From Rhizaria sp. SCN 62-66 (Eukaryota): 33,424 nucleotides of DNA. Where the stretch lies: contig MEDY01000328.1 in assembly GCA_001724265.1 (NCBI GenBank), positions 1 to 33,424 on the forward strand. Reading direction: 5' to 3'. This document shows, piece by piece, positions 7,140 through 29,100 of the stretch (position 1 is its first letter; each line of letters begins with the position of its first letter). The notes beneath the pieces were generated by a model that worked only from the letters and a program-made list of their open reading frames with translations, searched no databases and was not told where the DNA came from. Both the position numbers and the translations under genes were made by a program.

Positions 7140-7999
7140 CTATAAAGCAGCACCATCAAAGGAGAAGGGAGAGGAAACAGGACGAGGGGGTTAGTTTTGT
7201 CATGTTGTGCAACACAACCTTGTTACCACAAAACGAAAAGTTTTAAAGAAAGATCAAAATACGAAATATTGGTATACTGTAAAATAAGTACTACTTCATG
7301 TACACTTCAAGCTGGTTTCACGTCATGCGCGACACTCCGCAGCACTGCACGCGAAAACGTCATACCATGGAACAAAGGAGGCGTTTTGTCTTCACAGATC
7401 ACACAAAGTCTATGTTTCATATAATTGTTGACTTTCTAAAATATAACTCGTACTATTCCACACACAAATATTACTCTTATTACCACAAAACAGTCGGTGA
7501 ACGGATACGAGACAACTAATGTTCGCGTATCCAAAATCTTCCAACGGCTGTTTCGTGGTCGCAGCAACTTCGCGGTCGTTGATTGTTTGATTATGCATCG
7601 ATACATGGCAAGGTTATAAGCGATTATGATTAAAAAGCCACTGCAGTTTTATCATTTACGAGTGTCTATATAAAGCAGGTGCATATACGTTCCCAACCAC
7701 TTGGTAGCGTGTGTTCTACTGATGAGTGTATCCAAAGAGGCCAGTCGTAACTAGTGGTTTCCCACATAGCTCGGCCTCAAATCACGTGTCGGTGAGGCCA
7801 ACCTTCATAAAACACCTCCTCATCAGAGCCGCTGTACGGGCTCATGACTGCTGTGTGGCTGCCACTGTCCTTGTGGCCGTGCTTTCGCTTAAGTCAGATA
7901 ACTTGTGATGGCCACACAGCAATGTTCGCAGGCAGTGAACAAGACGAACGATCGCCATTCCGCGTTCAGCTTCGTTAGTATCCGGGCTGCGACTGTCAC

Positions 8000-8820: not shown

Positions 8821-9209
8821 CAGTGGGATGACTCGCAAGAAAAGCTCTACAAGTTGGGAAAAAAGGTGTTCTGCATGATGACATTTAAATAAAATAAATA
8901 AGCGCAAGTTAAAAACAATCAACAACCATTGATAATTCAAACCAGCGAATAATATGGCTACTTCACGCGTGCATAAGATGGCGCGCTCCCACTCAGTTCA
9001 TCACCAAGCTGGCCAACCACAAATGCAACTTGAAGGGCGCGAAAGAAGGATTTGTGTATTTACACAGCTACAGTAACTCCAACTGCGCCTAAACAACATT
9101 CATAACCGAAACCACATTCCATACAATAATAATTCATATCAATAATGTCCACAAAACACAACAACAACAACATCCTGTCTTATTCCTCATCAAAGACAAT
9201 ACTCTTTGT

Positions 9210-11826
9210 TTAGAGCTCGTCCTTGCCGCCGCCGTTGCGGTCACTGGTCATCTTGACCTCGGGCGCGGCGGACCGCGGCCAGTACTGACCCGCAATGAAG
9301 TCGAGCGTGCCGGCCACACCGTTGAAGTTCAGCGCCTGGGGCGCGACGGGGACGAGGTCGAAGGCGAGCTGCTGCGTCTTGCCGTCAGGGCTGGGCTTGA
9401 GCACCGGCTTGACCACGCGCGCCGCAGGCGTGAGAGTGATCTGGAACTGCTGCATCAGCGCCGCGTTGGACGCCGGCACGACGCCAACCTCTGCGTAGTC
9501 GTGGAACTCGGCGGCGAGTGCGCGCGCCAGCACCGGCACGCCGGGCTTGTCGGTCGCGATGAGCACGCGCGGTGCCAACATGTTCTGCATCAGCCACTGC
9601 TGGAACGCGTTGGCGTCGCCAGAGAGCACCTCGACGGCGATGTCGTCCAGCGCGGTCAGCGCCCACGCTGCCAGCGGCTTGAGCTCCACCGCGCCCGTGT
9701 ACGCACGGGCTGCGGCGGCACGCTGCTGCTTGAGGGCGGCGCGGTGCGCGGCCAGCGCGGCGGCGGCGGCCGAGGCGGCCTCGGCGGGGTCGGCGTCAGG
9801 CCCGACCTCGGGCTTGATGGCCGGGAGCTTGAGCGCCACGGCGGCCGGGAAAGACACGATCTGGCCGCCGCAGACGGCGCCGGTGGGCAGCCAGGCCTTG
9901 CGGAGGGCGGCCGTGGAGGCCTTGGCGTCGGCGTCGTCCTCCGCAGAGCAGCGGACCGTGGCGAAGGCGACCATGGAGTTGACTGACTTGCCAGCGTCCT
10001 CGAACTCCTTGCGCTCGGTCGCCTCGAGGGAGCTCTCGTCATCGCGCGCGAAGCGGACAACGAAGGGGCGTGCGCGGTGGCCGACCAGGGCGTCGGCGTT
10101 CTCGTCGGTCAGAGAGATGATCTCGCCGCGCTTGGTGTTGGGGCGCGACGGACGCTGCCACTTGAGCTCGTTCGCAGCAGCCTCCTGTCATAGATGCGAG
10201 ACGCAAGCAGGAGAGTGAGTTATGGTTATATTGTGGAATTGAAAGCTAAATTAGAGTAACATGTGTGGATCAACGTGCGCGTTTAGGTCTTATTTAAAAC
10301 GTACCTGAACCTTCTGCGCCTCACTGGTCGAGCCAGAAGAGGACGAAGAGGAGCTACTTGAGCTCGAGCTCGAGCTAGCACGAGCGGCCTTGCGGGCGCG
10401 CTTATCGAGCACTGCCTGGCACTGTCCACCCTCGCTGCCTTCGCTGCCGTCAGCGTTGGTGGTGACCAGCGGCAACAGCTTGCCTCCCGGCAGCGGCGCC
10501 GTGGTGGCCTGACCCTTCTGGAGCTCGTTGAGCCAGCGGTTGATGTCGTCGAGACGGAAAGAGCCGACAAGGGGCGCGGAGACGAGCTTGCGCGGCTGCA
10601 GCACGGCCAGCTGGGGATACTCCTGCGGCTCGAGCCCGAGGACATCGCGCACGAACGCGGGCTGTGCGCGGCCCGTAAGCCAGGAGAACTTGACGAAGTC
10701 GTCAGCGCGAAGGTCCTGGACCGACGCCAGCACGTCGAGGTCGTAGGCCGTCTGGCGGCGGGGCTGCTCGGGCGCGACGTAGATGGCGCAGAGCCCGCCC
10801 AGCGAGGCGCAGTGGGCCTGGAAGCACGACTCATCCGTCAGCTCGGGGATCGCCAAGGCCTCGGTGGCCGAGGTCGCCGTGTCGCGCGCGTAGAGCTGGA
10901 GGAAGGCGCGGATGGGGCCGGCCTTCATGAGGCCGGTGTACACGCGGGGCTCCTGTAATAGCGTCGTGATGACAACAATAGACAAGGAAGATATATGAGT
11001 TATAAGAGTACATTTTGGCATAAGATTAACATGAAAAGTTTGAGTTTAACTATAACGTTTAAGACTAGAATTCACTGATATCGTGGATATATATCTTGCT
11101 GTGTTCAGGGACACATACCTGATCGTCGAACTTGCCGCCGGCGGGGGTGGGAGGAATGACGACAATCGCAGGGAAATCCGAGATGTCAAACTTTTTCACC
11201 AGCTTCTTGTCACTCTTGTGCACCTCACCAACAAACAGGCGGTCCTTCATGTTGAGCGAGAGCGCAGCCCACGTCGGCATCGTCTCCTTCTTGGACGTAA
11301 ACAGCAGCGCCTTACCCATGTCAGCAGGCGCGTCCTTGACGAGCTTCTTGAAGTTGCTGTTGGTGACCTTGACCACGCGGCTTAACTTCTCCAGCTGCGC
11401 GTGGACGCCCTCGCGGAGGGACTTGGCCGTAAGCGCGGAGGCGTCGAGCTTCTCGCCCTCCTTGGGGTGGCCGTGGGAGAAGACCTTGACGACGGGCAGG
11501 TCGGCCGCGGTCACGCCCGCCGCGGCCAGCGCGGCGGCCGACTCGGGGTCCGCGGCGTCGACAGAGGCGAAGACGGCTTGACCGTGGAGCTCCTTGGCGA
11601 CGCGGTCGAACGTGTCGCGCAGAGGCTTGCACTTGGGGCACTTGGAGCGGGAGTAGAAGGCGACGTAGGTGAGAGCGTTGTCGCTACCCACAGCGGGGGC
11701 GAAGGAGTCGTCGTCGAGCTCGGTCACGTGGTGGGCCGAGAAGAATGACGACTGCGCCAGCGCGACAGACGCGGACAGGCTCAACAGGGCCGCCGCGAGG
11801 ACGAGAATGAGGCGGGAGAAACGCAT
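9210..11826 (-). CDS. ER-resident protein disulfide isomerase / multi-thioredoxin-fold protein; exons 11826-11119, 10952-10305, 10184-9210; 776 aa
   Basis: Signal peptide MRFSRLILVLAAALLSLSASVALA, VTELDDDSF...FYSRSKCPKCKPL thioredoxin domain with CPKC, further Trx-like domains, C-terminal KDEL then TAA. Introns GTATGT...CAG and GTACGT...CAG keep the frame. Confidence 0.88.
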
Positions 11827-12874: not shown

Positions 12875-14224
12875 ATGCCCGCCCCCAGCAGCGCCGCCGC
12901 CACGCCCGCGCCCGCGCCGACGGCCGCGGAGCTGACGGACCGCTACTCGACCGTTGCCTCGACGCTCGCGTACTGGGCCGACGCCTACAAGCTCACTCCC
13001 GGGCACGTCAACTTCTACAAACAACCCGCGATCGAGCTGTTTGAGCAGCACGAGCAGGCCCTCTTCGACGACCTCGACCTCCCCGAGTCCTGTTCCTCTT
13101 CACAGCAACAGGGCACGAATGCCGCAAACAGTGACGGTTCGCCCCCGCGAGCCCTCGTCGCAGCGCTGCAGGCCTTTGAGGCCGTGCACTTCGCCAAGCT
13201 CGAGTACATGATCGTCAAGCCTGTCGGCAAGGGCGCGTTCGGCCGCGTCTTTAAGGGCATCCGCCTCTCTGACAACGCCGACGTGGCGCTCAAGGTCATC
13301 GACCTCGAGGAAGCCAAGGAGGACGTGCAGACCATCGCGCAGGAGATCCGCGCCCTGGCCTCCTCCTCCGGCTGCCCGCAGCTCATCTGCTATTACTCGA
13401 GCTTCGTCACTGGCACCTTGCTGTGGATTGCGATGGAGTACCTCGACGGCGGCTCCGTCCTCGACTGCGTCAAAATCAAGCCGCTGCGCGAGCCGGCCGT
13501 GGCGGTGATCTGCCGCGAAGTCCTGCGCGGCCTCGAGTACCTCTCGCTCGAGGGCAAGATCCACCGCGACATCAAGGCCGCCAACGTGCTGCTGTCTTCG
13601 CAGGGCCACGTCAAGCTGGCCGACTTCGGCGCCTCTGGCCAGCTCACCGACACCATGACCAAGTGCAACACATTCGTGGGCTCGCCCTACTGGATGGCGC
13701 CCGAAGTGATGACTCAGTCGCGCTATGACGGCAAGGCCGACATCTGGTCCCTGGGCATCACCGTGCTCGAAATGCTCAACGGCAAGCCGCCGATGCACGA
13801 CGTGCCTCCGCTGCGCGCCATCCGCCTCATCCCCAAGAACCCGTCGCCTCGCGTCCCGCAGGGCATCTACACGGCCGACGCGACCGACTTCGTCAACGCG
13901 TGCCTCGTCAAGGACCCCGCGCAGCGGCCGACGCTTGCGGAGTTGCTGCGCTTTCCGTTCGTCGCCAACGCCAAGCCCATCGAGGAGCTCCCCGCGCTGC
14001 TCGCCCGCAGCAGCAGCAGTGGCTCGGGATCCTCTGGGTCCAAGGCCAGGGCTGCCGCTAAGGCCGCCGCTGCTGCCGCTGCGCCCGCCGTTGCTGCTGC
14101 TGCTGCGCCCGCCGTTGCTGCTGCTGCTGCTGCTTCTGAGGCCAGCGCCAGCGCCAGTGGCGATGCGGCAGCGGCGGCGGCGGCGGCCGGCAAGAAGGGG
14201 GCTGAGCTGGCTCCCGAGGCCTAA
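12875..14224 (+). CDS. STE20-family (GCK, MST3/STK24-like) Ser/Thr protein kinase, 449 aa, single coding exon
   Basis: GKGAFG, VALKVIDLE, IHRDIKAANVLL, VKLADFG, TFVGSPYWMAPEV, DIWSLGIT. Ends in TAA. Confidence 0.95.
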   Translation: MPAPSSAAATPAPAPTAAELTDRYSTVASTLAYWADAYKLTPGHVNFYKQPAIELFEQHEQALFDDLDLPESCSSSQQQGTNAANSDGSPPRALVAALQAFEAVHFAKLEYMIVKPVGKGAFGRVFKGIRLSDNADVALKVIDLEEAKEDVQTIAQEIRALASSSGCPQLICYYSSFVTGTLLWIAMEYLDGGSVLDCVKIKPLREPAVAVICREVLRGLEYLSLEGKIHRDIKAANVLLSSQGHVKLADFGASGQLTDTMTKCNTFVGSPYWMAPEVMTQSRYDGKADIWSLGITVLEMLNGKPPMHDVPPLRAIRLIPKNPSPRVPQGIYTADATDFVNACLVKDPAQRPTLAELLRFPFVANAKPIEELPALLARSSSSGSGSSGSKARAAAKAAAAAAAPAVAAAAAPAVAAAAAASEASASASGDAAAAAAAAGKKGAELAPEA

Positions 14225-16357
14225 GGCAGTTCACGGCTGTTGCAGTCGCGGTCTGCGAGTCCTGGTTAGCTGGCTGACCAGTGGTCCAGTAATGTGTAAG
14301 TATGGACGTGCGCTTAATGCGAAGGTGTTTTGTTGAGTGCCTGTATTTGTTGCGGTATGCTATGTGCAAGTCGTGTTGATGATGTGTTTTCTGACTTGTG
14401 TACTCCGTAGTATGGGTTCTTGCTGCTGTCTTTACTCACGCGTGAACTTGGACTATGGGAGTACGCACTTCACGTTGACACTGACGGTTTCATCAACATT
14501 TACATGCACACGCCCAATTCTAAGTTGTTTCGCGTTCGTCCACAGTCACTTGTTGACTGCTCACGATGCTATGCAGCTCTAGGAATGCTCACGGCTCCTC
14601 GATAGCAATCGATCAATCTTATATTGCTTTTCTGCTCATGCCAAATGTTAATAGGAACTACTTTAAGTAGTCTTGAAATAATAATATCGACACTTGTTAT
14701 TGTTTTGTTTTCTCACATGTATTTCAGTGTCTTTCGTAACCTTCGTGTCTTCGAAACCAGTGTATCTTTTATATATTTGTCATTTATTTCATCTTTGCTT
14801 TTTCTTGTCTTGTCTATCTCCGTCTTGCAACTTTATTTGCAACGTTGCCTCTTTTTCGTCGTTTGTTTGGTGTGCTTTATTTTGCAGACATGCTACTTTT
14901 ATCTGCTTCAGCTCCTTTACCATGTCCATCGCAGTCTCTCTCTTCTCTCTCTGAACAACTCTGTCACTGTCCTTGTCTCGACATCTCACAGCGTCACTGC
15001 TACTGTCACCGTTTTTCTGTCTGCCGCTGTTGCCGCCATGTCTACAGTCACACTATCTCTCTATCTTTCCTCTTGTTCACGTTGGTTTCTGTTCGTTTTG
15101 CTCTGCATTTTGTTTCATTTTGTTGATGCTGTGCTGTTAAGTTTGCTGTCACTCAATTATTAGCGTTTTCGTAACCATACCCCCCTTTATAGTCTTTAAC
15201 AAACAATCAATAACCAGTAATACAATTATATCATTCAAAATAAGACTTACTCCGTTCACAGAAACGAAACTTGAATCAGGCCACACTTGTGGCGACCGGC
15301 CATCTCGCGCTGCCGGCAGTGCACCAGCAGGTACGGGATGAACAGGGCCCGGGGTGCGATCAACAAAACCAACGGCATAATCACGGCGATGCAATAGAAA
15401 AGCGGTGCCGCCAAGAATAACTCAGTTACGCGCCACATGTGCGAACGCCGAGCGAAGTGGACCTCAGGGGTTAGGTGCTGAAGAGGGACTAACTCTCAAG
15501 TATTCCTTCGTCTTTCTTCAACGAGGTGGTAAACCTTTGTAAAAGCACCACAATGTGCTCACAAAACATCTTCTGCACTTTTATTAGCAACGCTATCATA
15601 TCTTTGCTTTGTTTGCAAGATCGATCACACTCTAACTGTTAGGTCGCTTTCGGTTACAGTCGTCGAGGTCAACAACTTCAAAGCGTGAACTTACGTAGCT
15701 GCGCACGCTGCTGGTGAATATGGACATCATTGCATCGGTGGCATCTACAGGCCAGTTGCAGAACATCAGATGGGTCTGCAGTGCAACCGGGTGAGCAAGA
15801 GCAACTCTTCGCCGCTGTTCAGTGGGCTGAGGGATAATGGTGAGGATAGTAAAACAATCAGTGTTGCCTAAAATAGATAGAATGTGTATGGCAATACGTA
15901 AATTACACAATGTCGTTTTGTTTTCATGTTAGTATTTTGTAACAAAGTTATGATTTTGTTTTTCTCAATAGAATCGTTCGTTTTTGTTCGCTTGATTGAT
16001 TGTTGTCGCAAGGAGGAATAACTTCAGCCCATCTTATCGTGTTGTTGTTGATAAGTTGACTCTACAGTTCCGTTGTGTGCGGCGGGTTGGATCAAACAAA
16101 CTTAATTCGGAGCAAATACACACTTACACGCACATTTGCACTTGCGATGCTGCTCTCAGCGATGCTGCTCTCATTGCGTTTGCCAGGACCGTACAACCCA
16201 AATCCTTGACACGCTAAGAGAGTGCGCACTGGGTGCGAGTGCTCGTGTTCACGCGTTCATGCATCTGTCGTTGATGATTTCCCTCGCTATCGCGTACACT
16301 CCTTCAGCTGGACGCCTTTGTACGCCTATCGCGTGTCTGCTTGTGGCATTTACGCGT

Positions 16358-16927
16358 TTACGCGTCGGCAGCCTTGACGGCGGCGACCGCGGGGGCGGCA
16401 CCGCCGGCGACACGGAGCGCGTTGGCCTCCTCGAGCTCGGCAATGCGCTTCTCGGCGCCCTGGATGCGCGCGATGAGGACCGAGACGTCGCCGTGCGCGG
16501 CCGACACGCGGGCCTTAACGTCGGCCGTAGAGGACCAGACGTCCTGGCGCAGACGGATGTAGCCGAACACGGCCGTGACGGCGACGCCGGCAGCAAAGGC
16601 CGACATGCGGGAGCGCCAAGAGCCGGGGGCCTTGTCTGCAACGGCGGCCTTCTCGGCGGCCGAAGGCGCGGCGGGGGTGGGGGCCGCGGTGGGCTTGGAG
16701 AAGAAGCCGGGGGCGGAGGAGCCGGTGACGGTGACGTTCTTCTCGGCCAGGCGTGCGGGGGACGCGCGCAGCAAACGGACTACGCGGGGGATGGGGATAG
16801 TGGGCACAGCACATAATAATGACATGGTGTGAGCACGGGAATGCAAGAGGAGAGATGAGAGAGAGAGAGGCGTAGTGCTTTGAGTGAGGCGTGAAATGAG
16901 AAAATAAGAGAAAGGGAACGTACACAT
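16358..16927 (-). CDS. Small putative mitochondrial single-pass membrane/coiled-coil protein; exons 16927-16924 and 16779-16358; 141 aa
   Basis: ATG T|GTACGT...CGTAG|TC CGT gives MFRLLRASPARLAEK (presequence-like). TM segment AFAAGVAVTAVFGYI followed by coiled-coil-like IQGAEKRIAELE. Strong C/G third-position codon bias in exon 2. Ends in TAA. Confidence 0.7.
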   Translation of the reverse strand: MCTFPFSYFLISRLTQSTTPLSLSSLLLHSRAHTMSLLCAVPTIPIPRVVRLLRASPARLAEKNVTVTGSSAPGFFSKPTAAPTPAAPSAAEKAAVADKAPGSWRSRMSAFAAGVAVTAVFGYIRLRQDVWSSTADVKARVSAAHGDVSVLIARIQGAEKRIAELEEANALRVAGGAAPAVAAVKAADA

Positions 16928-17274: not shown

Positions 17275-17380
17275 GCTGGTTGACCGACCGAGTCTTGGCC
17301 AACTGACTGACCAACAGCAAGCTCGGTCAGTCGGCCGGAAAAGGTAAGCCGGCGAAGTTGACTGAGACGAGCCAACGGTT
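17275..17380. promoter_or_regulatory. Putative element in the divergent mitochondrial-protein/MYCBPAP-RCC1 promoter region
   Basis: CGGCGAAGTTGA (17350-17361) is the exact reverse complement of 12224-12235; GACC/GACT tetramer runs at 17280-17312. Confidence 0.35.
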
Positions 17381-17672
17381 TCTCGTCGAGAAGTGAATAT
17401 TGAGTGCCAACGGGGTCAGATTTGCACTAGGGAGGCTGTGCTTAAATTATTATATTAAATATTGTTAAATAACATATATATTGCGACTTGATGTGTATCA
17501 ACGGATCATAGACTAACTTTATAGATCGTTTCTTGCCACCCTTCAGACAAACAAAGGCACTTGCCCCATCGCTTCCCGCGCTTCCCCTTGCTCCTCGCCG
17601 TGTACCCCGCTCGGTCTGAGCTTTCCACCGCGCCTTTGCCAGCCCCCGGCGGCTCTTTTACGCTCCGCCTCG

Positions 17673-20600
17673 ATGTCTGACACACGTGGCCTGGTCCTCC
17701 CGGCCATCGCGAAGCCCGGTGCAGACCCCGTCTCGGCGCTCGCTTCCCCGCCCTCCTCGGCCGCCCACGGCTCCAACAGCTCCAACGGCGCCTCCACGGC
17801 TGCGGGCGGCGTGCGCGTGTTCAAGCCTGTGCTCGTCCGCCGCAAGGTCAGCTCTGACAGCGCCCCTGAGCTGCAGCAGCTCGGTTTCTCCGTACCCGCC
17901 CCAGCGGTTCTGCCAGAGCTGCCGTCGCGCCCCACTTCGGCCGCCATCGCCCCACTGTCCCCGGCCGCCGCCGCGCACGGCCACGCAGCCGCTGCAAACG
18001 CCAGCGCGGCGGCGGCCCCGACCGTCTCGGCCGCCTTCACTGCCGCCGCCGCCGTAACGCCCGCTGGCCGCCACTCTGCCTTCGCTGCCCAGCACCACAC
18101 TCGAATCCCCTCCGCCTCGCACCACGCCGCCGCCCCGGCCTCTGCCGCCGCCTCCGGCGCGCAGGCGGGCCCGGTGGCGGGCGGTAAGACGCTGCTCGTC
18201 GCCCGCCGCGTTCCTCTGCCCTCCGCCGGCAACAACACCACCGCCAATACAAGCGCCCGCGGTAACTCTGCAGCTGCTGCTGCTGCTGCTGCTCGTAACG
18301 GCAGTGCCAGTGCAGGTTTGCCGTCCGCGGTGCCCGGCGCCGCGTCGACTCTTGCGCTGGCCTCCGCCGCGCTGGCCGACGACCCCGACGCCCCGGCTTC
18401 AGCGCTCGCGCTGACCTTAGAGCCCGAGTCTCTGGCCACAGACGCGGCCAGCTCCCACACTGCTGCTGCTGATGTGGGTGGTGCTTCAGTGGGCCCGCGG
18501 CTCGGTGCCGACGGCCGCGTCGTCTCCGCGGACGTCGTCGGCGACCCCGCGGCCGTGGATGCCCTCCGCTCCGCCCTCGCAGCGCTGGCCGCCGAGCGGG
18601 CCGCTCTGTCGCATCTGCTCCAGCCCAGCTCGAGCGGCAACAGCAACAGCGGCGGCAGTGGCAGTTCGCGGAATAGCCACGCACGGTGGGCCGACGGCAA
18701 TGGCAACAACAGCAACGATGACGGCCACGGTTATGACGGCTACGACGACAACAACAACGACGACGACTACGATGACGACGACTATGACGATAGCAACTCT
18801 GCCGCCCGCTTCCAGGCCGCGCAGGACGCTTACTAGGCCGCCGCCATGGGCTCTGCGGCCGCCGCCGCCACGGGCAGTGCGAGGGGATCCAAGGCCGCCC
18901 GCGTGCGCGCCCGCTGGGCCCAGCACCAGGCCGCATGGGGCGCCGTCGACCTCGCGTCCCGCACGTCCCGCATGGTCACCACCGGCAACGCCGCCGCGGC
19001 GCAGCGCTCCGCCGGCGGCAAGTCGCGGTCCACTGCGCGGGTGACCGGCGCTAGCGCTGGCGCTGGTGCTAGAGCGCTGCCGAGTGCGACCGCGGCGGCC
19101 CCGTCCCTGCTGCAGTCGTCGTCCCGTGCCCGCGCCGCCGCCGAAGTGTCCCGCCTTCGCGATCGCGCCGCTTCGCTCCGCGCGGCCGACGGGCCGACGA
19201 CGTGGGAGACAACGCTGCGCGGGCACCAAGACGCACTGGTCCCGGTCGGCGGGGCCCGCTCGGGGCTCTACTGCAAGATCCCCGTCCGCTGCCCCGCGCG
19301 CGTCGAGGTCGTCCGCAGCGCGCTGCCGGGCGCCAACGGCGACAACAACGCGTTATCCTTAAATGACAACGGCAACGACGATGATGAGGACGGCGACGAT
19401 GGAGAGAATGCCGATGGCGCTGTGGTTGCGCTGTCCAAGGACGCCGCGGGCGGAGACGCCGCCGCCCGCGCCGCCGCGGCCGCCTGGGCCGGTGTAAACT
19501 TGAACCCGCGCGCAGACTGGATGGCTGTGGCCGCTGTGCCACTGCGGCTCTACGCCGCGGCCCACGCCGACCTCACCTCCGCGACGCCGCACCTGGCCGC
19601 CGCGGCGAACAAGAAGGCCCGCATCGCTGCGAAGCAGGCCGAGGCCGCCGCGCAACGGGAAGCCGAGGCCTCCTCATCCTCCTCCTCCGCCGCCGCTGCC
19701 GCCGCTGCTGACGCTAACGTCGACGCTGATGTTGACGCGAGTGGAAACAGCAAGGGCTCCAGCAGCGCCGCCCAGTCCGGCCCCGCGGCCGTCGCCGTCA
19801 CTCCCTCCGTGGTCCTGGGCGCTGAGTCCGCCGCTGCCGCCGCAGGCGCCGTGGGCGCGGGGGATGCGCGCGCCGCGCTGCAGGGACGCGTGCCCGCAGG
19901 CACTATGGTGCGTGAGGCGGGCGTGCTTGCGCTGCGCAACACCGGCGACACAGCGCTGCGCTACACGTGGGACCTCACTCTCGACCACGGCACGAGCAGC
20001 ACTCACAGCGCGATCGCAGGCGCCGAGGGCGATGTCAGCGCGGTCGGCGCGACCCCGTTCCCCCTGCCGCCTGCCCGCGAGCCCGCGTACGCGTACAGCA
20101 ACAGCACTGCAGCAACCGCGAGCTCTGGCTCTGGCTCCTCCGGCTCCGTTGGCGCTGACATGGTCTACTGCGAAGGCTACGACGCCGCCGCGCTCCGCAG
20201 CGCTTCCGAGCTCGCTGCCCCGGTCCCCGCGCTCACCCTGTCCCTGCCCTGCCCTTCCGGCATTGCACTGCCAGGACACCTCGCCACCGCGCGCCTCCTT
20301 CTCGCGCGCGGTGGCTTACCTTCCGGCGCCCGCGGCCTAGCTTCCGCGCTGGTTCCCCCGACCGGCTCAGTGCACCACGCACGCGCCGTCCTCACTACTG
20401 TGCCCCCGCTTCCTCAGACAAGCTCCGACTCGAGCTCCAGCCCAGTGGCCGTGTCGGTGACCGTGCTGACGCCCTCGGCGGACGCCTGGGCTCCCGCGCG
20501 GTCCGCGCTGTCGGCCGCACTCGCTGCCCGCGCGCCCGTGTTGGCCGCCGCGGACACGGTGGCTCAGCTGGTGTGCGCGATGCCGCCCTCTGGGGTTGCT

Positions 20601-23600
20601 GAAGAGGACGAGCGGTACGAGTTCAGTCTCCGCAATAACAACTACAAGCACACTGGATACAGTCAGAGCAATAGTAGTGTAGAGCAGGAGCAGGAGCAGT
20701 TGTTCAAGAGTAAGTATATGTGGCAGCCCGCCCCTTGGTCCTCGCTGCCTTTCCCAGCCACCATCAGCTCCGGCTCTAGCTCTGATGGCAAAAGTGCTAC
20801 TGTCAAGAACCAGAGCCAAAACGATGAAGGCAACGACGCCGCTGCTGAGTCTGACGAATTTGACGACGACGATGATGATTACGAGGGTGTTGACGAGTCC
20901 AAGCGCCTCTACTTCCACGCCTCTCTGCAGCCTCAGTGGCACGCGCTGGCGGCTGACGTCATCGCCGCCCACCCGGCCTCGCTCCGACCGCAGCTGCGGT
21001 GGGACCTCACGGCCGCCTGGCTGCGCGGCGCCATCGCCTCCCTGCCGGCCCGCTCCCGGCCGCTGCTGCCGCGCCTGCGCGCGCGCTGGATCCGCCTCGT
21101 GGTTCAGGCGCAGCAGCCGCCCGCGCCGCACCCAGCGAGCTGCGCCGCACTTAAGGCCTTGCTCGCCGCCGCCACGGCACACACGCCGCGGCTGGCCCAC
21201 GCCGCCGCGCTGGCGCTGCCGCTGCCCGCCGAGCCCGCTGCCGCGGCCGCCGCGCGCGCTGCCTTAGCCGCCGCCGCTGCGGCCGCGGCCAAGCCCGCCG
21301 CGATGCGCGGGCGCCCCGGCGCCAACGCAGTCTCCGCCGCCGACGCCGCGGCGCTCGAGGCTTATGAGGCCCAGTGCGCCGTGGTTCGCGCGCGCCGCTC
21401 CGCGCTGCTGACGACGCTGCTCGCACAACACCTCGGCGCCGCGATTGCCGCGTGGGACGCCGTCGCCGCCCCCGCGCGCGCGCTGGCGGCCGAGGACCCG
21501 GCCGGCAAGGTTGAGCTGGAGGAGCTGGTCGCCGCGCAGCGCAGCGCCGCTGCCGCCGAGGCCGCCACGGCGGGCCGCCTGGTTTACTTCGGTGACGGCA
21601 CCTCGGCGCCGGACCCGGGCCCGCGGGCCGAGACGCGCGCGCAGCAGCAGGCGCGTGAGCTGGCTGAGCGCCGCCGCCCTCGCGCGTTCCAGACGCCCGC
21701 GCAGAAGGCCGAGGCGGCGCGCGCGGCGGCGCTGCTGGCCGCAGACCCGCTGCACGGCGCCGCCGCGACGGCCGTGGCGTTGGGCCCCGCAGGCGCGCTC
21801 GTAGCCACCGAGGGCCGCGCCGTGGCCGCCTGGCGCGCGCGTGCATTCGACGTCGCGCTGGCCGCCGCGGGCGGGGACAAGCGCGCGCGCGGCGCGCAGC
21901 AACGCGGCGGCGCCGCCATCGCCGCTGCCGCAGCCGCTGCAGCCGCCGCCGCCGCCGCTGCCGCTGCTGCGTCCAGCGCGACCGCCAACGCGCCTCCGAA
22001 TATGGGCGCCTCGAGCGACACTGAGGGCGGCCCCGGCATGGCGTCCGCGAACAGCTCGTTCAACGCCAGCAGCGCGGCACTGCCAAACTCTGGCTCCAGC
22101 GCCGCCAGCCCCGTCGCCACCAGCGGCGGCAACGGCGGCGGTGGCAGCGGCGGCGCTGCTGCGGCCGGGTCGGCGACCCCTACGGGCCCGACCTCCGCAG
22201 CGGCGGCCGCGGCCGCCGTGGCCGCGGCCGTGGCCGCGGCCGCGACGTCCGGCGCGGACGTGCCGGGCCACCCCGGTCTGCGGGACCGGCGTACCGTGCC
22301 CGAGCTGGCGGGGCTGTCGGTGCGCCAGCTCGTCTCCACGGGCGACGCTGCGGGCCTCGTGGTGACGACCGACGGCGCGCTGTACAGCTGGGGGCCTACT
22401 ACGGCCGCCACGCAGGCCGCCGCCGCGGCGTCGCCGGTGCTGACCCGGGCGCTTCAGCAGCTCTCCGGCACCAACATCGCCAGCTCCAGCTCCAGCTTCG
22501 GCTCGAACGCGAGTGTCAGTACAAGCAATGTTCCTAGCGGCTCTGTCGTCGCGCCCACCGAGCCGCTGCTGCGGCCGGTGGACGCGGCGCTCTCAGCCGC
22601 GCGCGTCAAGGCCGTCGCCGCGACGCTGGATCCCGCGCCTGGCCAAACGGCCTTCTTCGCCGTCACTGAAGCGGGCGCGCTCTACGCCTGGGGCGACGCG
22701 GCATCCCCGAAGCTCTCGCTGCTGGCGCTGCCTCAGCGCGGCGCCAACGTGGCCACGGCGCCCACCCCCGTGCTCGTGCCCGGCTTCGCCCTGCGCGGTA
22801 TCAAGATCGCCGCCGTGGCCGCGGGCGCGCAGCACGTGCTGGCCCTCACCACCACGGGCGCCGTCTACGCGTGGGGCAGCAACGACGCCGGGCAGCTCGG
22901 CCTGGGCGACAAGCGGCCCCGCATGCTACCGACGCTTGTCGAGGCGCTCTCGCGCCCCGGGTCGAGCAACGACCTGGCCAGCGACAAGCTTGACGACGAC
23001 GGCAAGGTTGTGCTGGCTGACTCGACCGCCGAGGGCGCCGTCGCAGGCCCGCGCGGCCGCCGCACAGCCCATAACAGCACCAGCGGCTCTGGCGGCTCTA
23101 GCAGCATTGGGAGTGGCAGCGGCAACGGCAACGGCGGGTCGGTCTCCCCGTCGCCGTCTCCCATAGGCCCTACACTGGGCGTCCCCGGATCTGCTGAGGG
23201 CGGCGGGCCGCTGCCGCTGACGCGCGTGCGCAGCACGAGCCGCTCCAACACCGGCGGGAGCAACATTACCAACAGCAGCAACGCCGGTGACGCCGATGCT
23301 GCGGCCTCGTTCGACCCCATTGTCGCCATCGACTGCGGCCTCAGCTTCTCCCTCGCCGTCACGGCCTCCGGCGCCGTGTACTGCTGGGGCGAGGGCCGCG
23401 ACGGCGCGCTCGGCCACGGCGACACCAAGGACTGCGACCGACCCCGCCGCCTCGACGCCTTCCCCCCTGCCGCCAGCCTCGGCTTCAACAATACGGCGGC
23501 AGCGTTCGGCAGCGTGCATCTGGCCGAGGACAGCATCCCCTCCAGCCGCTCCGCCACGGCCACGGGCCAGCGCCGCCCTCCTTCGCAGCATCGCCGCACC

Positions 23601-24017
23601 GTCGGTGGCCCGCACGGCGGGGTTTTGTCCGCGACCGCGGCTACGGCTGCAGTGAGCTCTAGGGACCCGACTGGCCGCGACCGGCGCATCGTCTCGGCGC
23701 GCTGCGGGCACCGGCACGTGATCGCATTGGCGCAGTCGGGCGACGTGTGGGCCTGGGGCGCCAACGGGGCCGGGCAGTTGGGCCTGGGCACTGCCATTGC
23801 GGCTACAGCTGCCAACGGCGTCGTCAGTGCAGAGGACGCGGCGGCCGCCGTGACTGCGACGCCCACGCTTGTGCCCGCGCTGGCGCAGAGCGCCGTGTCT
23901 CCCGCGCGGGTCGTCGCAGTGGCCGCGGGCGGTAACGCCAGCGCGGTGACAATGCAGCCGCCCGTGGAGGAGGACGAGGAGAACGCGAGCGGTGACAACA
24001 GCGAGAATTCTCTCTGA
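17673..24017 (+). CDS. MYCBP-associated-protein-like N-terminal region fused to C-terminal RCC1 repeats; 2114 aa if the in-frame TAG at 18834-18836 is decoded
   Basis: ORFs 17673-18836 and 18846-24017 are in the same frame, separated only by TAG GCC GCC GCC. MYCBPAP-like motifs occur on both sides (GPRLGADGRVVSADVVGD; WETTLRG...VPVGGARSGLYCKI; LRNTGDTALRYTW...GIALPG). RCC1 motifs: AGAQHVLALTTTGAVYAWGSNDAGQLGLGD, CGLSFSLAVTASGAVYCWGEGRDGALGHGD, CGHRHVIALAQSGDVWAWGANGAGQLGLG. Ends in TGA. Confidence 0.75.
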
Positions 24018-24485
24018 GCTTATTTCAAGCCTTGGAGCTCTAGTCTAAACAAAGAGATTTGTTTTCACTCATAAGTATATATATTACACAGTTCTGCGCG
24101 ACTTGCGCTTTGTTCTAGATTGTTTTGCAGTGCCCGACATGCAACTTTGGTGTTTGTCAACGGCTATGGTGATAGCGACACGGTCATGGCTCGATGCGAG
24201 ACTTTGTCTAGCTGATCTTTATACACACATTATTCATTATCCGAATCGATATTGAGAAATTCTTTAGTGGTTATGCGTTTATTCATAAAGGTTTCTACTT
24301 GGATTTGTTTTCAGCTTTTCTAAAATGTTCACATGTCCCTATGAATTCCCCATCGATTGTCGCCATCTCCAGACTCTGTTCTCGTTCTCACACCACTGCT
24401 GACAAAGCGTAGAAAAAAGACACATCTCTACATTATCGTTCAGCCACCGCTACAGTTAGTGCGTGTAACACACTCTTATTGAAGT

Positions 24486-25868
24486 ATGAGTGCTGCGCAA
24501 AAGTCGCTCCAAGAGCGGATGAAGCAGATGCAGGCCCTGCGCGGCGGCGGCCTCGCAGTTGGCGCCGCTGCCTCCCGCCCCACTGCCCCCGCGGCCCCAG
24601 TCTCGATTGGACTCACCATGCCCGCGCCCTCCGCGGCCGCCAACGCCGCCGCGGGCACACCTAGTCTTCCCAACGCGCCGCGAGCTGCTGCAATGAAGCC
24701 CGACCCTGCCGCAGCCTCCGCCGCGAGCGCTGCCGTTTCTGCTGCCTCCACAACTACCAATACCGGCGTTGCCCACCGTGTCATTCCCCGCAAGGCGCCT
24801 CCGACCGCATCCGCGCTATCCGCGTCCTCGTCTACTCTGCTTCCCACAACAAACAGCAGCGCCAGCGTTGATGCAACGCAGCAGCCGCAGCAGCCCGCGG
24901 TAGCATCCGATGACGCCCGGGCGCGCGCCGTCGCCCTGCTAGCGGCCCGCAAGAGTGCGCTCGCCCCCGCGCGCCCCGCTGCATCCTCGCTCCAGCCCAC
25001 AGTGTCTTCCACTACCGCCGCGGCGCCCCCTGTCGTGAAGCCTTTCTTGGGCGGCTCGGCGTTTGTGTCGCCGTTCGCACACGCCAACTCAAACAATCAC
25101 AACAACTCCACCTATAGCTCGAGCTCCAGTAGTCGCATTGATATGATCGGTGATGACGCATCTTCTGGTAGCACAGGTGACAGCGCTGCCGCCCCCGCCA
25201 AGCCCGCCTATTCTTCGATCCGTTCCGCCGACGACACTTATGACGGCGACAACGGCCACCACGGCGCCGGTCCCTACGCCAAGCGCTCCCGCTACGGCTC
25301 CAGCTCCGGCGGCGGCCCCGGCTCCGGCCCTGGCGCCCCCGGTGGCGGTGGGGCGCAAGCGAAGGCGGCGTCCCGGACCGTCCGTGTAAGCAATATCCCA
25401 CTGACGGCCTCCGAACAACTTGTGCGGTCGGTCATCGAGGCGGCGGCGGGGGCGCGTGTCCTGCAGCTGCACATGCCGCCCGGCAAGGGCATGTGCTCTG
25501 CGGACCTGGAGACCCCTGCGGCGGCGGCGCGCGCCGTGGGCGAGCTGTCCGGCGCGACGCCGTTCGGCCGGTTCACGGCGCCGCTGGTGGCGCAGCTCTT
25601 CGTGCGCGAGCAGCGCCGTGGCGGCGTGGAGGGCGGCGCCACGGGGTACCAGGACGTCGACGACATCGAACACACCGCTGGACTCTTCCAACAGCAGCAG
25701 CAGCAGCCGGCGAGCGCGGACGCGGCGGCGGCGGCGATGGCGCTGGTGGCCGGCGCGGGCATGGGCGGCGTTGGCTGGGCACTGGGGGGCTCCGACACGG
25801 TGGGGTACTTGCCGCGCGTCGTCATCAGCTACGCGGACTTATACAGCGACAAAAGCGTCATGATGTGA
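24486..25868 (+). CDS. Single-RRM protein, candidate negative elongation factor E (NELF-E)-like, 460 aa
   Basis: RRM RTVRVSNIPLTASEQLVRSVI...LHMPPGKGMCSADLETPAAAARAVGELSG; N-terminal helix SAAQKSLQERMKQMQALR; C-terminal PRVVISYADLY. Ends in TGA. The CDS and RRM are more certain than the NELF-E assignment. Confidence 0.7.
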   Translation: MSAAQKSLQERMKQMQALRGGGLAVGAAASRPTAPAAPVSIGLTMPAPSAAANAAAGTPSLPNAPRAAAMKPDPAAASAASAAVSAASTTTNTGVAHRVIPRKAPPTASALSASSSTLLPTTNSSASVDATQQPQQPAVASDDARARAVALLAARKSALAPARPAASSLQPTVSSTTAAAPPVVKPFLGGSAFVSPFAHANSNNHNNSTYSSSSSSRIDMIGDDASSGSTGDSAAAPAKPAYSSIRSADDTYDGDNGHHGAGPYAKRSRYGSSSGGGPGSGPGAPGGGGAQAKAASRTVRVSNIPLTASEQLVRSVIEAAAGARVLQLHMPPGKGMCSADLETPAAAARAVGELSGATPFGRFTAPLVAQLFVREQRRGGVEGGATGYQDVDDIEHTAGLFQQQQQQPASADAAAAAMALVAGAGMGGVGWALGGSDTVGYLPRVVISYADLYSDKSVMM

Positions 25869-26167: not shown

Positions 26168-29100
26168 TCACTGGATGTCGGTGAACTGCACAGGCCCGAA
26201 CTGCTTGATGTGCGCCGCGAGCGCCGTGGCCGTGCCGGGGACCAGCGGCTGGCCTCCGTCCACGAGCACGGCCCTGAGCAGCCTGAGCGCGTCGCGGCGT
26301 GAGGCGTGGGGATACAACCGCCGCAGCATGGCGACCTCTTCAGCCAGCGCGCCCGTGAGCGGGCCGCGAACCTTTGTCGCCGCCTGCAGGTCGGTGCCGG
26401 AGATCAGGGGCACACTCGCACTCGAGGTCGCAGGGGTCACAGCACTCGCACTGCTGCTGTTGCTGTTGTTTTGGCTTTGACTGTGGACGTAGCCGGGCGA
26501 GTGCGCCGTGGCCGTGGTACCCAGCGGGCCCCACGCCGAGTACACGTGCAGCGCAAGCGCGCGCACTGACCCCGCGCACCACTCGCCCTTCTCGGCCCGC
26601 GGCGGCCCGCTGCAGACAGCGTTGCTTGCGTAGCCGGCGGGCTGCGGGAACCGCGCCCAGAGCGGGCCCGCCGTGGCCATCAGCCCGGCAGTGCGGCGGC
26701 AGGCAGCCGCGGCGGCGCGCGCGCGCTTGCGGAGCCCGGAGATGGCGGCGCGGGACACGCCGGGCGCGCCCAAACTCGCACTGGAATTGGTAGATGTGGA
26801 TGTCGAGGTGCTGACGGTTGCGTCGGCCATAGGCGCCGTGACGTCTGCGGCGTCCTCGGCCTTGTCGACGTCGAAGTCCATCGCGGGACGCGACTCAAAG
26901 CCCACCACGGGCAGCGCCACGACCTGTAGCGCTGAACGGCTCGAATCGTCCTCGTCCTCAGCACCGGGAGTGACGCCTGCGGAGGCGGCGGCGGCGGCGG
27001 CGGCGGCGAGAGAGAAGCCGGGGGATAGGGTGCTGAGAACGGAGACTGCGACGGGCACGGTGACGGCCGGAACAGTGCCCGCGCACTCGTTCACCGCAGT
27101 AGCCGCAGGAGTGGCGGCGGTGGCGGTGGAGGCGGCAGGAGTGCGACCGGTGGCGGTGGTGGCGTTGACCGAAGAAAAGGCGGGCGACACCGCCGGGGAG
27201 GGCGCATTGAGGACGCCGCCGAGGCCAACGCTGCTGCTGCTACTGCTGCTGCTGATGCTGCTGACCGCGCGCGTGACAGAGAGCAGCGACGTCGACGACG
27301 GCACCGGCAGCGGGACTGGCGACAGCGCCCCATCGTCACCGTCGTCGTCGTCACTCTCACTCTTGTCGCGGCCGCAGTCGTCGCCGCCGTTGTTGTCGGC
27401 CTCGCCGTCGCCGATGCAGCTGTTGCTGCCGTTGGCGGCGGGGGCGGTGACCGTGAGCGCCAGAGCCCCGCCAGCGGCCAGCACAGCCGCATCCGGCCTT
27501 GCGTTCGCAGCAGCAGCAGCAGTGGTGGGAGCGGGAGCGGCGGTAGGGGCGCGGTACTTGCGGGGCGGAGCCGTGTAGGGCAGCGGCGCCGAGAGCACGG
27601 CGAGCGTCACCTCCGCCAGGGCGAGCGATACGGGCAAAAACTCACCGGCAGCCGCGGTGGCGGCGGCGAGCCGGGCCGTCCAGGACCCAACGGCCGCCGC
27701 CACCGCCGCAGCGTCATTGGCATTGGCACTCGCACACGCGCTGGCGCTGGCGCTGAAGGAGCTCGCGCTTGCATTAGCGTTGAGGCGGGGAGTGAGCTTC
27801 TGCAGCAACCTGTTGTGCTCGATGGCGAGTCCCTGCAGCTTTGTTGACGTCAGCAGGATCGTGTCGACGGCGTTGGCGTCGGCGAGCGAGAGCTTGAGCG
27901 ACTCCAGCACGTGGTGGTGAGCCAGCGACCGGTGGCGGCCGCGGCCGAGGTGGACGCGGCGGCCGAAGCAGGGCAGCAGGAAGGCGGCCAACAGGGCCAT
28001 CGCAAATGCTGTCTGGGATGGGGACTCAATGTGGGAAGCGGCAGGAGAACTCGTAGACTTACCACTCTGCTGCTGTTGCTCTTGATGCAAGATCCGCTCC
28101 TGGAGAGCAATGTTTTGCTGCTGCTGCGCCAGTAGGCGTGCCTCGACCGCAGCGGCCGAGGCCGGACTGCAGGTAGCAGCCTCTGAGCCGCTACTAATGC
28201 TGCTAGAGAGCTCAGGGCCGGGGGCCAGAGCCCAAAGCCCGACCCTGCGCGCAACGGCGCGCGCCACGGCGTCCCCTGCCTCGGTACTATGGCCGTGAGC
28301 GTGTGCGCGGTGGTCGACGAACAGCTGCTGCTGCGGCGACAGCACACCCGGCGCGGCCAGGAGCACCTCGGCCACCGCCCCAACGGGCACGGAGCCGGGG
28401 ACTTGCCAGCGGCGCACCACCGCCGCGTTCACAGGCGCATTGTTGCTGCTGTTGTTGTTGTTGGGAGAGAGAGCAGAGAGGTCGGGCGCAGGGGTGCGAC
28501 TATCATCCGCAACAACCACGCTGACAGTCACCCCGTCGCCAGTGCCTTCCTCGTCCGCGTCGCCGTCACCTTCGCCTTCGCTGACGCCGGCACCAGCGGC
28601 AGCGGCGGCGGTAGCGGCGGCGGCGGTCTTGGCGGCGGAGGCGGCACGGACCGCCTCGGCTGAACTAGCCGACAGCAGTGCTACCGCCTCCTCCTTGGTG
28701 GGATGCTTCGACGCCTTAAACGTGGCGGGATACCGCCGCAGAAAGAGGTCGTGAAGCGCGTCCATGCAGCGCCAGCCGAGGGACGTAAGCACCGTGTCCT
28801 CGCTGATGTTGCCTAGCCCGACGGCGCTGAAGCTCGCGCCCGCAGTGTCCGCCGTCCCCGGCCGCAGCGGAGGGGCCACGGCCGCGGCGTCGGCGTTGAC
28901 GTGGTTGCTGTTCACCGCCACCGCTGGCGCATGCGCAGCAGGGCCAGTGGCGCCGGTGAGGAGGTTGTTGAGCGCGAGCGCGGTGGCTTGCGCCTTGGCC
29001 TGTTGCGCCAACTGCTCCAGCGCGGCGGGGGCGTGGGCCGCCAGGACCAGCCTGTGCACCACCTCGGGGGAGGCGAAGAGGGGGTACTGAGCAGCCAGAT

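What the first reader, a model, noticed from the sequence alone, without database searches (positions are those of the whole stretch)
18492..19290. In-frame TAG splits one MYCBPAP-like domain in two
Seen: ...CAG GAC GCT TAC TAG GCC GCC GCC ATG GGC... (FQAAQDAY*AAAMG), with no drop in GC, no UTR or intergenic sequence and the same frame on both sides. Real gene ends here are followed by hundreds of bases of non-coding, generally AT-richer DNA. The upstream part holds GPRLGADGRVVSADVVGD, which I recognise from memory as resembling the N-terminal GPxFDxxGxxLPHSILG motif of MYCBPAP; the downstream part holds the family core. TAG as a splice acceptor is unlikely: there is no pyrimidine tract, AT-rich intron or nearby phase-0 consensus donor. 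The 3' context (GCC) is not a known leaky-stop signal.
Basis: partly seen in the sequence, partly recalled or inferred. Interest (0 to 1): 0.8.

Follow-up and report, generated by a model that had tools for sequence, protein, structure and literature searches.

The report
Amber stop inside a flagellar gene
A single real TAG stop codon cuts an otherwise intact 2,100-codon flagellar (MYCBPAP-RCC1) gene of an uncultured wastewater eukaryote in two, most likely a young nonsense mutation rather than a new way of reading the code.

Summary
TAG at 18834-18836 is the only stop in one frame that is open from 17517 to 24017. Contigs from other public runs, including a second study, carry the same letters, so it is not an assembly error.

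The one close relative found (P0002, 47% identical) reads straight through this point. More distant relatives are MYCBPAP-RCC1 fusion proteins. A profile comparison aligns the window protein over their MYCBPAP domain, although Pfam itself does not hit the window protein.

The TAG does not cut the Pfam domain. It lies in a variable linker, after the family's N-terminal motif and about 19 residues before the domain starts.

- No intron fits.
- There is no RNA structure beyond what composition gives.
- There is no sign of a general TAG reassignment: one in-frame TAG in about 8,000 codons.

An ATG in strong context follows 9 bases after the stop and opens an intact 1,723-codon frame. That frame has the architecture of a natural short family member.

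Best reading: a young nonsense allele. The distal protein may still be made on its own. Readthrough or reinitiation is not excluded. Interest is low to moderate.

The parts
17673..18833 (+). Proximal ORF, 387 codons. It runs from the first ATG (weak context, cgcctcgATGt) to the codon before the TAG. It holds a low-complexity Ala/Ser-rich N-terminus, the family N-terminal motif and an acidic Asp/Asn/Tyr run.
   Evidence: GC3 is 0.79. Codon-usage score is +0.62 next to the TAG.
18492..18569 (+). Conserved N-terminal family motif, GPRLGADGRVVSADVVGDPAAVDALR.
   Evidence: It aligns with P0002 GPRVGADGRVLPVDVVGDPAAVDALR and P0009 GPPVDHTGKLIDWGMLGEPEDF. Similar motifs occur in P0003, P0011 and P0014. 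Identity to P0002 in this block is 46 of 62 aligned residues.
18810..18833 (+). Conserved block FQAAQDAY, directly before the stop.
   Evidence: P0002 has FEAAQRAY. Seven of 10 aligned residues at P0001 379-388 are identical.
18834..18836 (+). In-frame TAG (amber) codon, followed by G.
   Evidence: The same letters stand in contigs of X2/X3 and X4. It aligns with Met in P0002 and with Lys in a charged linker of P0009.
18846..18848 (+). First in-frame ATG after the stop, 9 bases downstream, in strong context (gccgccATGg).
   Evidence: Met makes up 0.5% of residues in this gene, so a Met within four codons has about a 2% chance (a post hoc figure).
18846..24017 (+). Distal ORF, 1,723 codons plus TGA. 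It is intact, with no further stop or frameshift.
   Evidence: The ESM Atlas holds this 1,723-aa protein letter for letter.
18891..20670 (+). Approximate stretch equivalent to the Pfam MYCBPAP domain (PF14646). It is swollen by low-complexity inserts. It includes the WETTLRGHQDALVPVGGARSGLYCK block and an Ig-like LRNTGDTALRYTW block.
   Evidence: hhalign against the N-terminal halves of P0009/P0011/P0005/P0014/P0003 gives probability 98.3, E 1.9e-14. PF14646 in P0009 covers residues 164-558. Boundaries are inferred from that alignment.
22266..23822 (+). RCC1-like beta-propeller repeats, approximate limits.
   Evidence: Pfam PF25390, PF00415 and PF13540. PDB matches to UVR8, HERC2 and RCC1.
24015..24017 (+). 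True gene end, TGA, followed by AT-rich DNA.

Best explanation
The TAG is a genuine amber nonsense codon in the DNA of an uncultured, GC-rich, intron-bearing eukaryote from wastewater and bioreactor communities.

It interrupts what was ancestrally one gene. That gene encodes a divergent MYCBPAP (FAP147)-RCC1 fusion protein, a relative of the stalk protein of the C2a projection of the ciliary central apparatus. The stop lies in a variable linker, between the family's N-terminal motif and the start of the MYCBPAP core.

I take it to be read as a stop, so the long form is cut to 387 residues. The event is young, or only the long form is lost. The 1,723-codon distal frame is still intact. It starts with a well-placed ATG 9 bases after the stop, and it contains the whole Pfam-defined MYCBPAP core plus the RCC1 propeller. 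A natural short family member, P0005, has that same architecture.

Shown:
- The TAG is real.
- The ancestral gene was continuous.
- The TAG lies outside the Pfam domain.
- No intron, special RNA structure or general recoding is present.

Inferred:
- The TAG terminates translation.
- The allele is recent.
- The distal protein may still be made.

Contigs cannot tell whether the allele is fixed or heterozygous.
For: 1. The TAG is real. It stands in contigs of X2/X3 and of X4, a second study, with 0 differences.

2. The ancestral gene was continuous. P0002 spans the junction in one ORF. P0003, P0009, P0011 and P0014 carry the motif and the core in one protein.

3. The block upstream of the TAG is as conserved as the core. 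Identity to P0002 is 46 of 62 aligned residues (74%) there, against 64 of 78 (82%) and 218 of 313 (70%) in core blocks. It was therefore under selection for most of the time since the two lineages split.

4. The standard code fits. TAA and TGA end the 9 genes whose ends I could place, each followed by AT-rich DNA. There is one in-frame TAG in about 8,000 coding codons. Known TAG-reassigned lineages have 1.6-5 per gene (PMC5304391, passages read).

5. The termination context is not leaky. G follows the TAG. That this favours termination is recalled knowledge, not tested here. The 100 bases after the stop fold no better than shuffles (z +0.88; 169 of 200 shuffles fold at least as well).

6. The allele looks young. 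Of 15,507 possible single-base changes in the distal ORF, 280 would make a stop. About 0.74% neutral divergence gives a 50% chance of a second stop. None is present.

7. The distal ORF is a plausible protein on its own. Its ATG has a strong context. P0005 (1,071 aa) starts 15 residues before its MYCBPAP domain.
Against: - The same TAG sequence appears in runs dated 2015 to 2024. A harmful allele might not be expected to persist that long, though a clonal lineage or a dispensable gene would explain it.
- The distal 5.2 kb has no second lesion. This fits continued selection on it as well as it fits youth.
- None of the 9 gene ends in the window uses TAG, so the window itself does not show that TAG terminates in this organism.
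- A Met within four codons of the stop has about a 2% chance. P0002 has a Met at the aligned position. Both hint at a used internal start rather than pure accident.
- Seven out-of-frame ATGs lie between 18472 and 18784. The upstream ORF is 387 codons long. Reaching the distal ATG from the same mRNA would therefore need something special. If nothing does, the gene is simply broken.
- No translation data exist.
Confidence: 0.55

Rival explanations
1. This is a functional two-protein arrangement. The stop is tolerated, or even used, because the distal MYCBPAP-core-RCC1 protein is made from the ATG at 18846. That could happen from an internal transcription start in the acidic low-complexity stretch, or by termination-reinitiation 9 bases after the stop. 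The 387-residue N-terminal piece is made separately.
For: - The ATG lies 9 bases after the TAG in the strongest start context among the 11 candidate starts listed (gccgccATGg).
- The chance of a Met that close is about 2%.
- P0002 has a Met at the aligned position.
- P0005 is a natural short form that starts at the equivalent place.
- The distal ORF is intact over 1,723 codons.
- Contigs from a polyA RNA run match both halves at similar low depth: 18483-18696 at 4.2, and 19313-19535 and 19736-20207 at 2.5-5.0. None matches 17300-17767.
Against: - Reinitiation after a 387-codon ORF is not normal eukaryotic behaviour (established knowledge).
- Seven out-of-frame ATGs precede 18846, one of them in good context at 18700. 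This argues against leaky scanning.
- No listed RNA contig bridges the TAG or starts near it.
- The RNA library may contain DNA.
- The start of P0005 is a gene caller's call that I could not check against DNA.
Confidence: 0.2
2. Programmed or leaky readthrough of the TAG gives some full-length 2,110-residue protein alongside the truncated form.
For: - The frame is continuous and conserved on both sides.
- No second lesion is present.
- The sequence after the stop is very GC-rich and folds stably in absolute terms (-51.9 kcal/mol per 100 nt).
Against: - G at +4 and GCC GCC match none of the known leaky contexts, which are CAR-YYA after UAG and CUAG after UGA (recalled knowledge).
- The fold is no more stable than shuffles (z +0.88 for 100 nt, +0.99 for 60 nt). 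Control stretches of the same gene behave alike (z 0.06 to 1.39).
- No conserved structure could be tested, because no relative's DNA was obtainable.
Confidence: 0.1
3. TAG is not an efficient stop in this lineage. It would be a rare sense or ambiguous codon, as in the TAG-only reassignments of Rhizaria sp. exLh (Leu) and Iotanema spirale (Gln).
For: - None of the 9 gene ends placed in the window uses TAG: 5 use TAA and 4 use TGA.
- The family includes a rhizarian member, Norrisiella.
- TAG-only reassignments exist (PMC5304391).
Against: - There is only one in-frame TAG in about 8,000 codons. Reassigned lineages have 384 in 71 genes and 204 in 126 genes.
- Zero of 9 is weak evidence: about 13% by chance if TAG ends a fifth of genes.
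- No tRNA gene of any kind lies in the window.
- The aligned residues in relatives differ (Met, Lys), so no consistent meaning emerges.
Confidence: 0.03
4. The TAG lies in, or ends, an unrecognised intron.
For: TAG ends in AG. There are 26 GT...AG spans of 20-400 bases, a multiple of three long, that enclose it.
Against: - The two introns recognisable in the window are AT-rich. They are 166 and 172 bases long, with GTATGT or GTACGC donors, and both are frame-consistent.
- All 26 candidate spans have 65-72% GC and poor donors.
- Every candidate span would delete the FQAAQDAY block that is conserved with P0002, and the spans with donors at 18474-18555 would also delete all or part of the N-terminal motif.
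- A polyA-run contig is colinear over 18483-18696.
Confidence: 0.02
5. Sequencing or assembly error.
For: The window comes from a metagenome assembly at low depth, about 7x in X2.
Against: Independent Logan contigs from X2/X3 and from a different study, X4, carry the same letters. No alternative letter is listed at the site.
Confidence: 0.02

Closest known systems
MYCBPAP / FAP147 (Pfam PF14646), stalk of the C2a projection of the ciliary central apparatus
   Same: - 8 of the 10 phmmer relatives that I scanned carry PF14646 above its cut-off.
- A profile-profile alignment covers P0009 65-551, which includes nearly all of P0009's domain, at probability 98.3.
- The WxxTLR...SGLYC block and an Ig-like block are shared.
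- P0009 matches Chlamydomonas FAP147 in PDB entries 7n61/7som at E 1.3e-10.
- That FAP147 equals MYCBPAP and forms the C2a stalk comes from PMC13345628 (passages read).
   Different: - Pfam's model does not hit the window protein itself.
- The domain is stretched by long Ala/Ser/Asp-rich inserts.
- It is fused to an RCC1 propeller.
- It is interrupted upstream by a TAG.
MYCBPAP-RCC1 fusion proteins of protists (P0003, P0005, P0009, P0011, and P0014 from Norrisiella sphaerica)
   Same: The order of parts is the same: N-terminal motif, MYCBPAP core, a conserved helical region (LYFHxxLxxxWxxLAxDV...WDL), then RCC1 repeats.
   Different: Those are single ORFs of 1,071-2,021 residues. The window gene is longer and low-complexity-rich, and it is the only one with an internal stop. 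P0005 lacks the N-terminal motif.
Premature termination (nonsense) alleles in natural populations
   Same: A single stop sits in an otherwise intact, conserved frame, with no other lesion.
   Different: Here an in-frame ATG in strong context follows after 9 bases, and the cut falls in a linker. A working distal protein is therefore conceivable.
TAG-only nuclear code changes (Rhizaria sp. exLh, Iotanema spirale; PMC5304391)
   Same: An in-frame TAG lies in a conserved gene, and TAG is absent from the 9 gene ends seen.
   Different: Those lineages have several in-frame TAGs per gene. Here there is one in about 8,000 codons.

Membership tests
MYCBPAP (Pfam PF14646) | Direct match to the Pfam model at or above its gathering score (24.5 bits) | tested here: not met
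   There is no PF14646 row at E<=1 for the joined protein or for either ORF. There is none at E<=10 for four sub-pieces of the window protein or for P0002.
MYCBPAP (Pfam PF14646) | Significant sequence similarity to proteins that do carry the domain | tested here: met
   phmmer over 1.84 billion representatives found 13 hits at E<=0.001. I scanned 10 of them. Eight have PF14646 above the cut-off, one is below it (P0012, 23.2 bits) and one has none (P0010). The phmmer matches themselves lie mostly just after the domain.
MYCBPAP (Pfam PF14646) | Alignment over the domain itself | tested here: met
   hhalign of the N-terminal halves gives probability 98.3 and E 1.9e-14. Window-part residues 9-754 align with P0009 65-551, and P0009's PF14646 match is 164-558. 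The query profile has only 2 sequences.
MYCBPAP (Pfam PF14646) | Location in the C2a projection and binding to CFAP65/CFAP70/MYCBP | not testable with these tools
   Known for FAP147 and mouse MYCBPAP (PMC13345628). No data exist for this organism.
RCC1-like propeller | Repeated RCC1 blades matching Pfam | tested here: met
   PF25390 scores 159 bits against a cut-off of 150. PF00415 scores 125 bits and PF13540 91.7 bits. UVR8 and HERC2 chains match at E 1e-45 to 1e-35.
Programmed stop-codon readthrough | Known leaky 3' context, or a stimulatory RNA structure just downstream | tested here: not met
   The context is TAG GCC GCC. The known contexts are recalled, not looked up. The fold of 18837-18936 has z +0.88 against shuffles. 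Conservation of structure could not be tested.
TAG-reassigned nuclear code | Many in-frame TAGs at conserved positions | tested here: not met
   Of the 63 isolated stops, 1 has coding-like flanks. That is one TAG in about 8,000 codons, against 1.6-5 per gene in known cases.
TAG-reassigned nuclear code | TAG never used as a true gene end | tested here: inconclusive
   None of 9 gene ends uses TAG: 5 use TAA and 4 use TGA. The sample is too small to decide.
TAG-reassigned nuclear code | A tRNA with anticodon CUA, or an altered eRF1 | not testable with these tools
   The window has no tRNA gene. No genome is held for this window.
Termination-reinitiation (stop-restart) | The restart codon lies within a few bases of the stop | tested here: met
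   The ATG is 9 bases after the TAG, in the same frame.
Termination-reinitiation (stop-restart) | An upstream element that tethers the 40S subunit (complementary to 18S rRNA) | not testable with these tools
   The organism's 18S rRNA is not available.

The most novel reading that the evidence does not exclude
The stop is not damage but design. A TAG followed after 9 bases by an optimal ATG would let one mRNA give two proteins: an N-terminal motif protein and a MYCBPAP-core-RCC1 protein. This would work by termination-reinitiation after a 387-codon ORF, or by regulated readthrough. Either would be an unusual translation mechanism for a cellular eukaryotic gene.
Probability: 0.12. Interest if true: 0.6.

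Novelty: new member of a known kind. Interest (0 to 1): 0.25.

Why it matters
If it is a plain nonsense allele, the finding matters little. It is a caution for annotating eukaryotic metagenome contigs, because the source's gene call keeps only the distal 1,723-residue ORF.

It also records a very divergent MYCBPAP-RCC1 gene that Pfam misses. It hints that a wastewater protist may be shedding or remodelling a central-apparatus protein.

If the distal protein is really made from the same mRNA, or the TAG is read through, it would be a natural example of stop-restart or readthrough in a cellular gene. It would also show that the MYCBPAP core can work without the N-terminal motif.

Tried and rejected
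- **Whole genome:** none is held for this window.
- **Closer relatives or other alleles across the junction:**
  - The word-index search at near length found only P0002.
  - The search among shorter proteins with region 262-470 found nothing at E<=0.01. Low-complexity words may have swamped the 8,000 candidates.
  - The scan of metagenome contigs with alignment A1 matched 227 stretches, and tblastn confirmed none. No relative's DNA was therefore available, and no dN/dS or conserved RNA structure could be computed.
- **ESM Atlas:**
  - The first try was too long for the tool.
  - P0002 and the distal ORF as it stands gave no usable hit.
- **PDB by sequence** with the joined protein gave only RCC1 proteins.
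- **Rfam and tRNA scans** of the window found nothing.
- **Earlier findings of this scan:** three look-ups, all empty.
- **Literature on MYCBPAP together with RCC1:** 4 papers hold both words. By their titles and abstract starts, none is about a fusion protein (listing only).
- **RNA evidence:** no listed contig of the polyA run X7 bridges the TAG. This is a gap in cover, not a finding.
- **Structure prediction and complex prediction** were not run. The alignments are too shallow (2-5 sequences) and too low in complexity to give a trustworthy model.
- **Lineage:** I did not try to place the organism beyond noting that one family member comes from the rhizarian Norrisiella.
Full report
**What is in the sequence**

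The window reads ...CAG GAC GCT TAC TAG GCC GCC GCC ATG GGC..., with TAG at 18834-18836. Read stop to stop, one frame is open from 17517 to 18836 and again from 18837 to 24017.

With ATG starts, this gives two ORFs:
- a proximal ORF at 17673-18836, 387 codons;
- a distal ORF at 18846-24017, 1,723 codons.

Both have the high GC3 of the window's other genes, 0.79 and 0.84. GC is 0.53-0.60 in the 120 bases before the TAG, which is a run of Asp/Asn/Tyr codons. It is 0.77-0.80 after the TAG. Real gene ends in the window are followed by DNA of 40-48% GC.

I listed every stop in any of the six frames with at least 60 open codons on both sides. There are 63. Only this one has coding-like codon usage on both flanks, +0.62 and +0.43 bits per codon. 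The distal ORF was part of the training set for that score; the proximal one was not.

**Is the TAG real?**

The window comes from a wastewater or bioreactor metagenome. I laid Logan contigs of four runs on 17300-24300.
- X2 and X3 each hold a 2,778-base contig over 18342-21119 with no difference. Their tables are identical, so they are probably one data set.
- X4, from another study and year, holds a 175-base contig over 18701-18875 with no difference.
- No run lists another letter at 18834-18836.

An error of one assembly is therefore excluded. Contigs drop minor or second alleles, so heterozygosity or polymorphism is not excluded.

The polyA RNA run X7 has contigs that match both halves. 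These cover 18483-18696, 19313-19535, 19736-20207, and further pieces down to 24206. None matches 17300-17767. No listed piece bridges the TAG, and the library may contain DNA. I treat this only as a weak hint that both halves are transcribed.

**One gene or two?**

The word-index search over residues 260-760 of the joined protein (X at the stop) found one relative, P0002 (1,787 aa). BLASTP aligns it over 1,242 columns at 47% identity, straight through the junction: FEAAQRAY-M-AQSRG against FQAAQDAY-*-AAAMG.

The block before the TAG is among the best conserved parts. Identity is 46 of 62 aligned residues there, against 64 of 78 and 218 of 313 in two core blocks. The ancestral gene was therefore continuous, and its N-terminal part was under selection.

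I could not obtain the relative's DNA. I found no closer relatives or fragments.

**What the gene is**

Pfam finds only RCC1-type repeats at the C-terminus. It finds no MYCBPAP model, even at E<=10 on sub-pieces or on P0002.

An exhaustive phmmer search of 1.84 billion representatives gave 13 hits. I scanned 10 of them.
- Eight carry PF14646 (MYCBPAP) above its cut-off.
- One is just below the cut-off, and one has no match.
- P0003, P0005, P0009 and P0011 also carry RCC1 repeats.

P0014 has the same build by alignment and comes from the chlorarachniophyte Norrisiella sphaerica.

The whole-length profile comparison aligned only the part from the post-domain region to the RCC1 repeats, at E 2.6e-57. 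I then cut both alignments to their N-terminal halves and ran hhalign. This gave probability 98.3 and E 1.9e-14, over window-part residues 9-754 against P0009 65-551.

P0009 in turn matches Chlamydomonas FAP147 in PDB 7n61/7som at E 1.3e-10. FAP147 is the MYCBPAP orthologue and forms the stalk of the C2a projection of the central apparatus (PMC13345628, passages read).

The window gene is thus a very divergent MYCBPAP-RCC1 protein, swollen by low-complexity inserts.

**Where the stop falls**

- P0002: GPRVGADGRVLPVDVVGD
- P0009: GPPVDHTGKLIDWGMLGE
- P0014: GPQRDSEGNILDHTLLGS
- looser forms in P0011 and P0003

In P0009 and P0011 this motif lies 60-100 residues before the point where Pfam's model begins. 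Model positions 2-3 fall at residues 164 and 193. In the hhalign alignment, P0009 163-179 pairs with the window's SKAARVRARWAQHQAAW. This places the domain start about 19 residues after the TAG, near base 18891.

The TAG itself pairs with a charged, variable linker. So the stop separates the N-terminal motif from the core. It does not cut the Pfam domain, which lies wholly in the distal ORF.

P0005 (1,071 aa) begins 15 residues before its MYCBPAP domain and lacks the motif. This is the same build as the window's distal ORF. I could not check P0005's start against DNA.

**Explanations tested**

*Intron.* The window shows two likely introns: 4110-4281 on the + strand, and 11118-10953 on the - strand. 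They are 172 and 166 bases long and AT-rich. Their donors are GTACGC and GTATGT, and both are frame-consistent. Around the TAG there are 26 in-frame GT...AG spans. All have 65-72% GC and poor donors. Every one would delete the conserved FQAAQDAY block, and those with donors at 18474-18555 would also delete all or part of the N-terminal motif. I reject the intron reading.

*Recoding of TAG.* The 9 gene ends I could place use TAA five times, TGA four times and TAG never. This is worth noting but weak. Only one in-frame TAG occurs in about 8,000 coding codons. The known TAG-only reassignments have 384 in 71 genes and 204 in 126 genes (PMC5304391, passages read). No tRNA gene or Rfam family lies in the window. 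I consider this reading unlikely.

*Readthrough.* The context TAG-G-CC is not one of the known leaky ones (recalled knowledge). The downstream 100 and 60 bases fold no better than shuffles, with z +0.88 and +0.99. Control stretches of the same gene behave alike.

*Restart.* An in-frame ATG lies 9 bases after the stop, in the strongest context of the 11 candidate starts listed. Met is only 0.5% of residues in this gene, so a Met that close has about a 2% chance, a post hoc figure. P0002 has a Met at the aligned position. Against restart, the proximal ORF is long, and seven out-of-frame ATGs lie between 18472 and 18784.

**Age**

In the distal ORF, 280 of 15,507 single-base changes would create a stop. 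About 0.74% neutral divergence would give an even chance of a second stop, indels aside. None is present. Either the TAG is young, or the distal frame is still under selection.

Two differences were seen in other runs. One is synonymous (18623, CAG to CAA). The other is Thr to Ala (20052). They are too few to use.

**Verdict**

The most likely reading (0.55) is a genuine, young amber nonsense allele in a MYCBPAP-RCC1 flagellar gene. It truncates the long form. Whether it is fixed or heterozygous is unknown.

A functional split, with the distal protein made on its own, is the main rival (0.2). Readthrough follows (0.1). Reassignment, an intron and an error are each unlikely.

This is an ordinary kind of event in a gene family member that is itself new to annotation. 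Its interest lies mainly in the untested possibility of stop-restart. Supplementary files of the papers cited were not consulted.

Noticed in passing
window, gene ends at 4625-4627, 5552-5554, 9210-9212, 10290-10292, 14222-14224, 16358-16360, 24015-24017, 25866-25868, 26168-26170: None of the 9 gene ends I could place uses TAG: five use TAA and four use TGA. The apparent TAG ends at 4186-4188 and 11065-11067 lie inside AT-rich introns. The sample is too small to say that TAG is avoided as a stop.
   Followed up: partly
window 4110-4281 (+) and 11118-10953 (-): There are two likely spliceosomal introns, 172 and 166 bases long. Both are AT-rich inside GC-rich exons, with GTACGC or GTATGT donors and AAG or CAG acceptors, and both are frame-consistent. 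The second joins two thioredoxin/PDI-like ORFs (10290-11021 and 11065-11826) into one gene.
   Followed up: partly
proteins P0003, P0005, P0009, P0011, P0014: A MYCBPAP domain fused to an RCC1 propeller recurs in several uncultured eukaryotes and in Norrisiella sphaerica. A full-text search for MYCBPAP plus RCC1 listed 4 papers, none about such a fusion by title or abstract start.
   Followed up: partly
window 9210-9974 (-): This ORF ends in ...GGGKDEL, a KDEL-type ER-retention ending. It has no Pfam match, and it lies next to the PDI-like gene.
   Followed up: no
They are probably the same data filed twice and should count once.
   Followed up: no
window 18846-24014 (+): The ESM Atlas holds the 1,723-residue distal ORF letter for letter. 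An existing public gene call therefore treats the distal ORF as a protein of its own and drops the proximal 387 codons.
   Followed up: no
window 7000-9000 and 14500-16000: These are long stretches of 40-50% GC with no convincing ORF, tRNA or Rfam match. They are large intergenic regions for an otherwise gene-dense contig.
   Followed up: no
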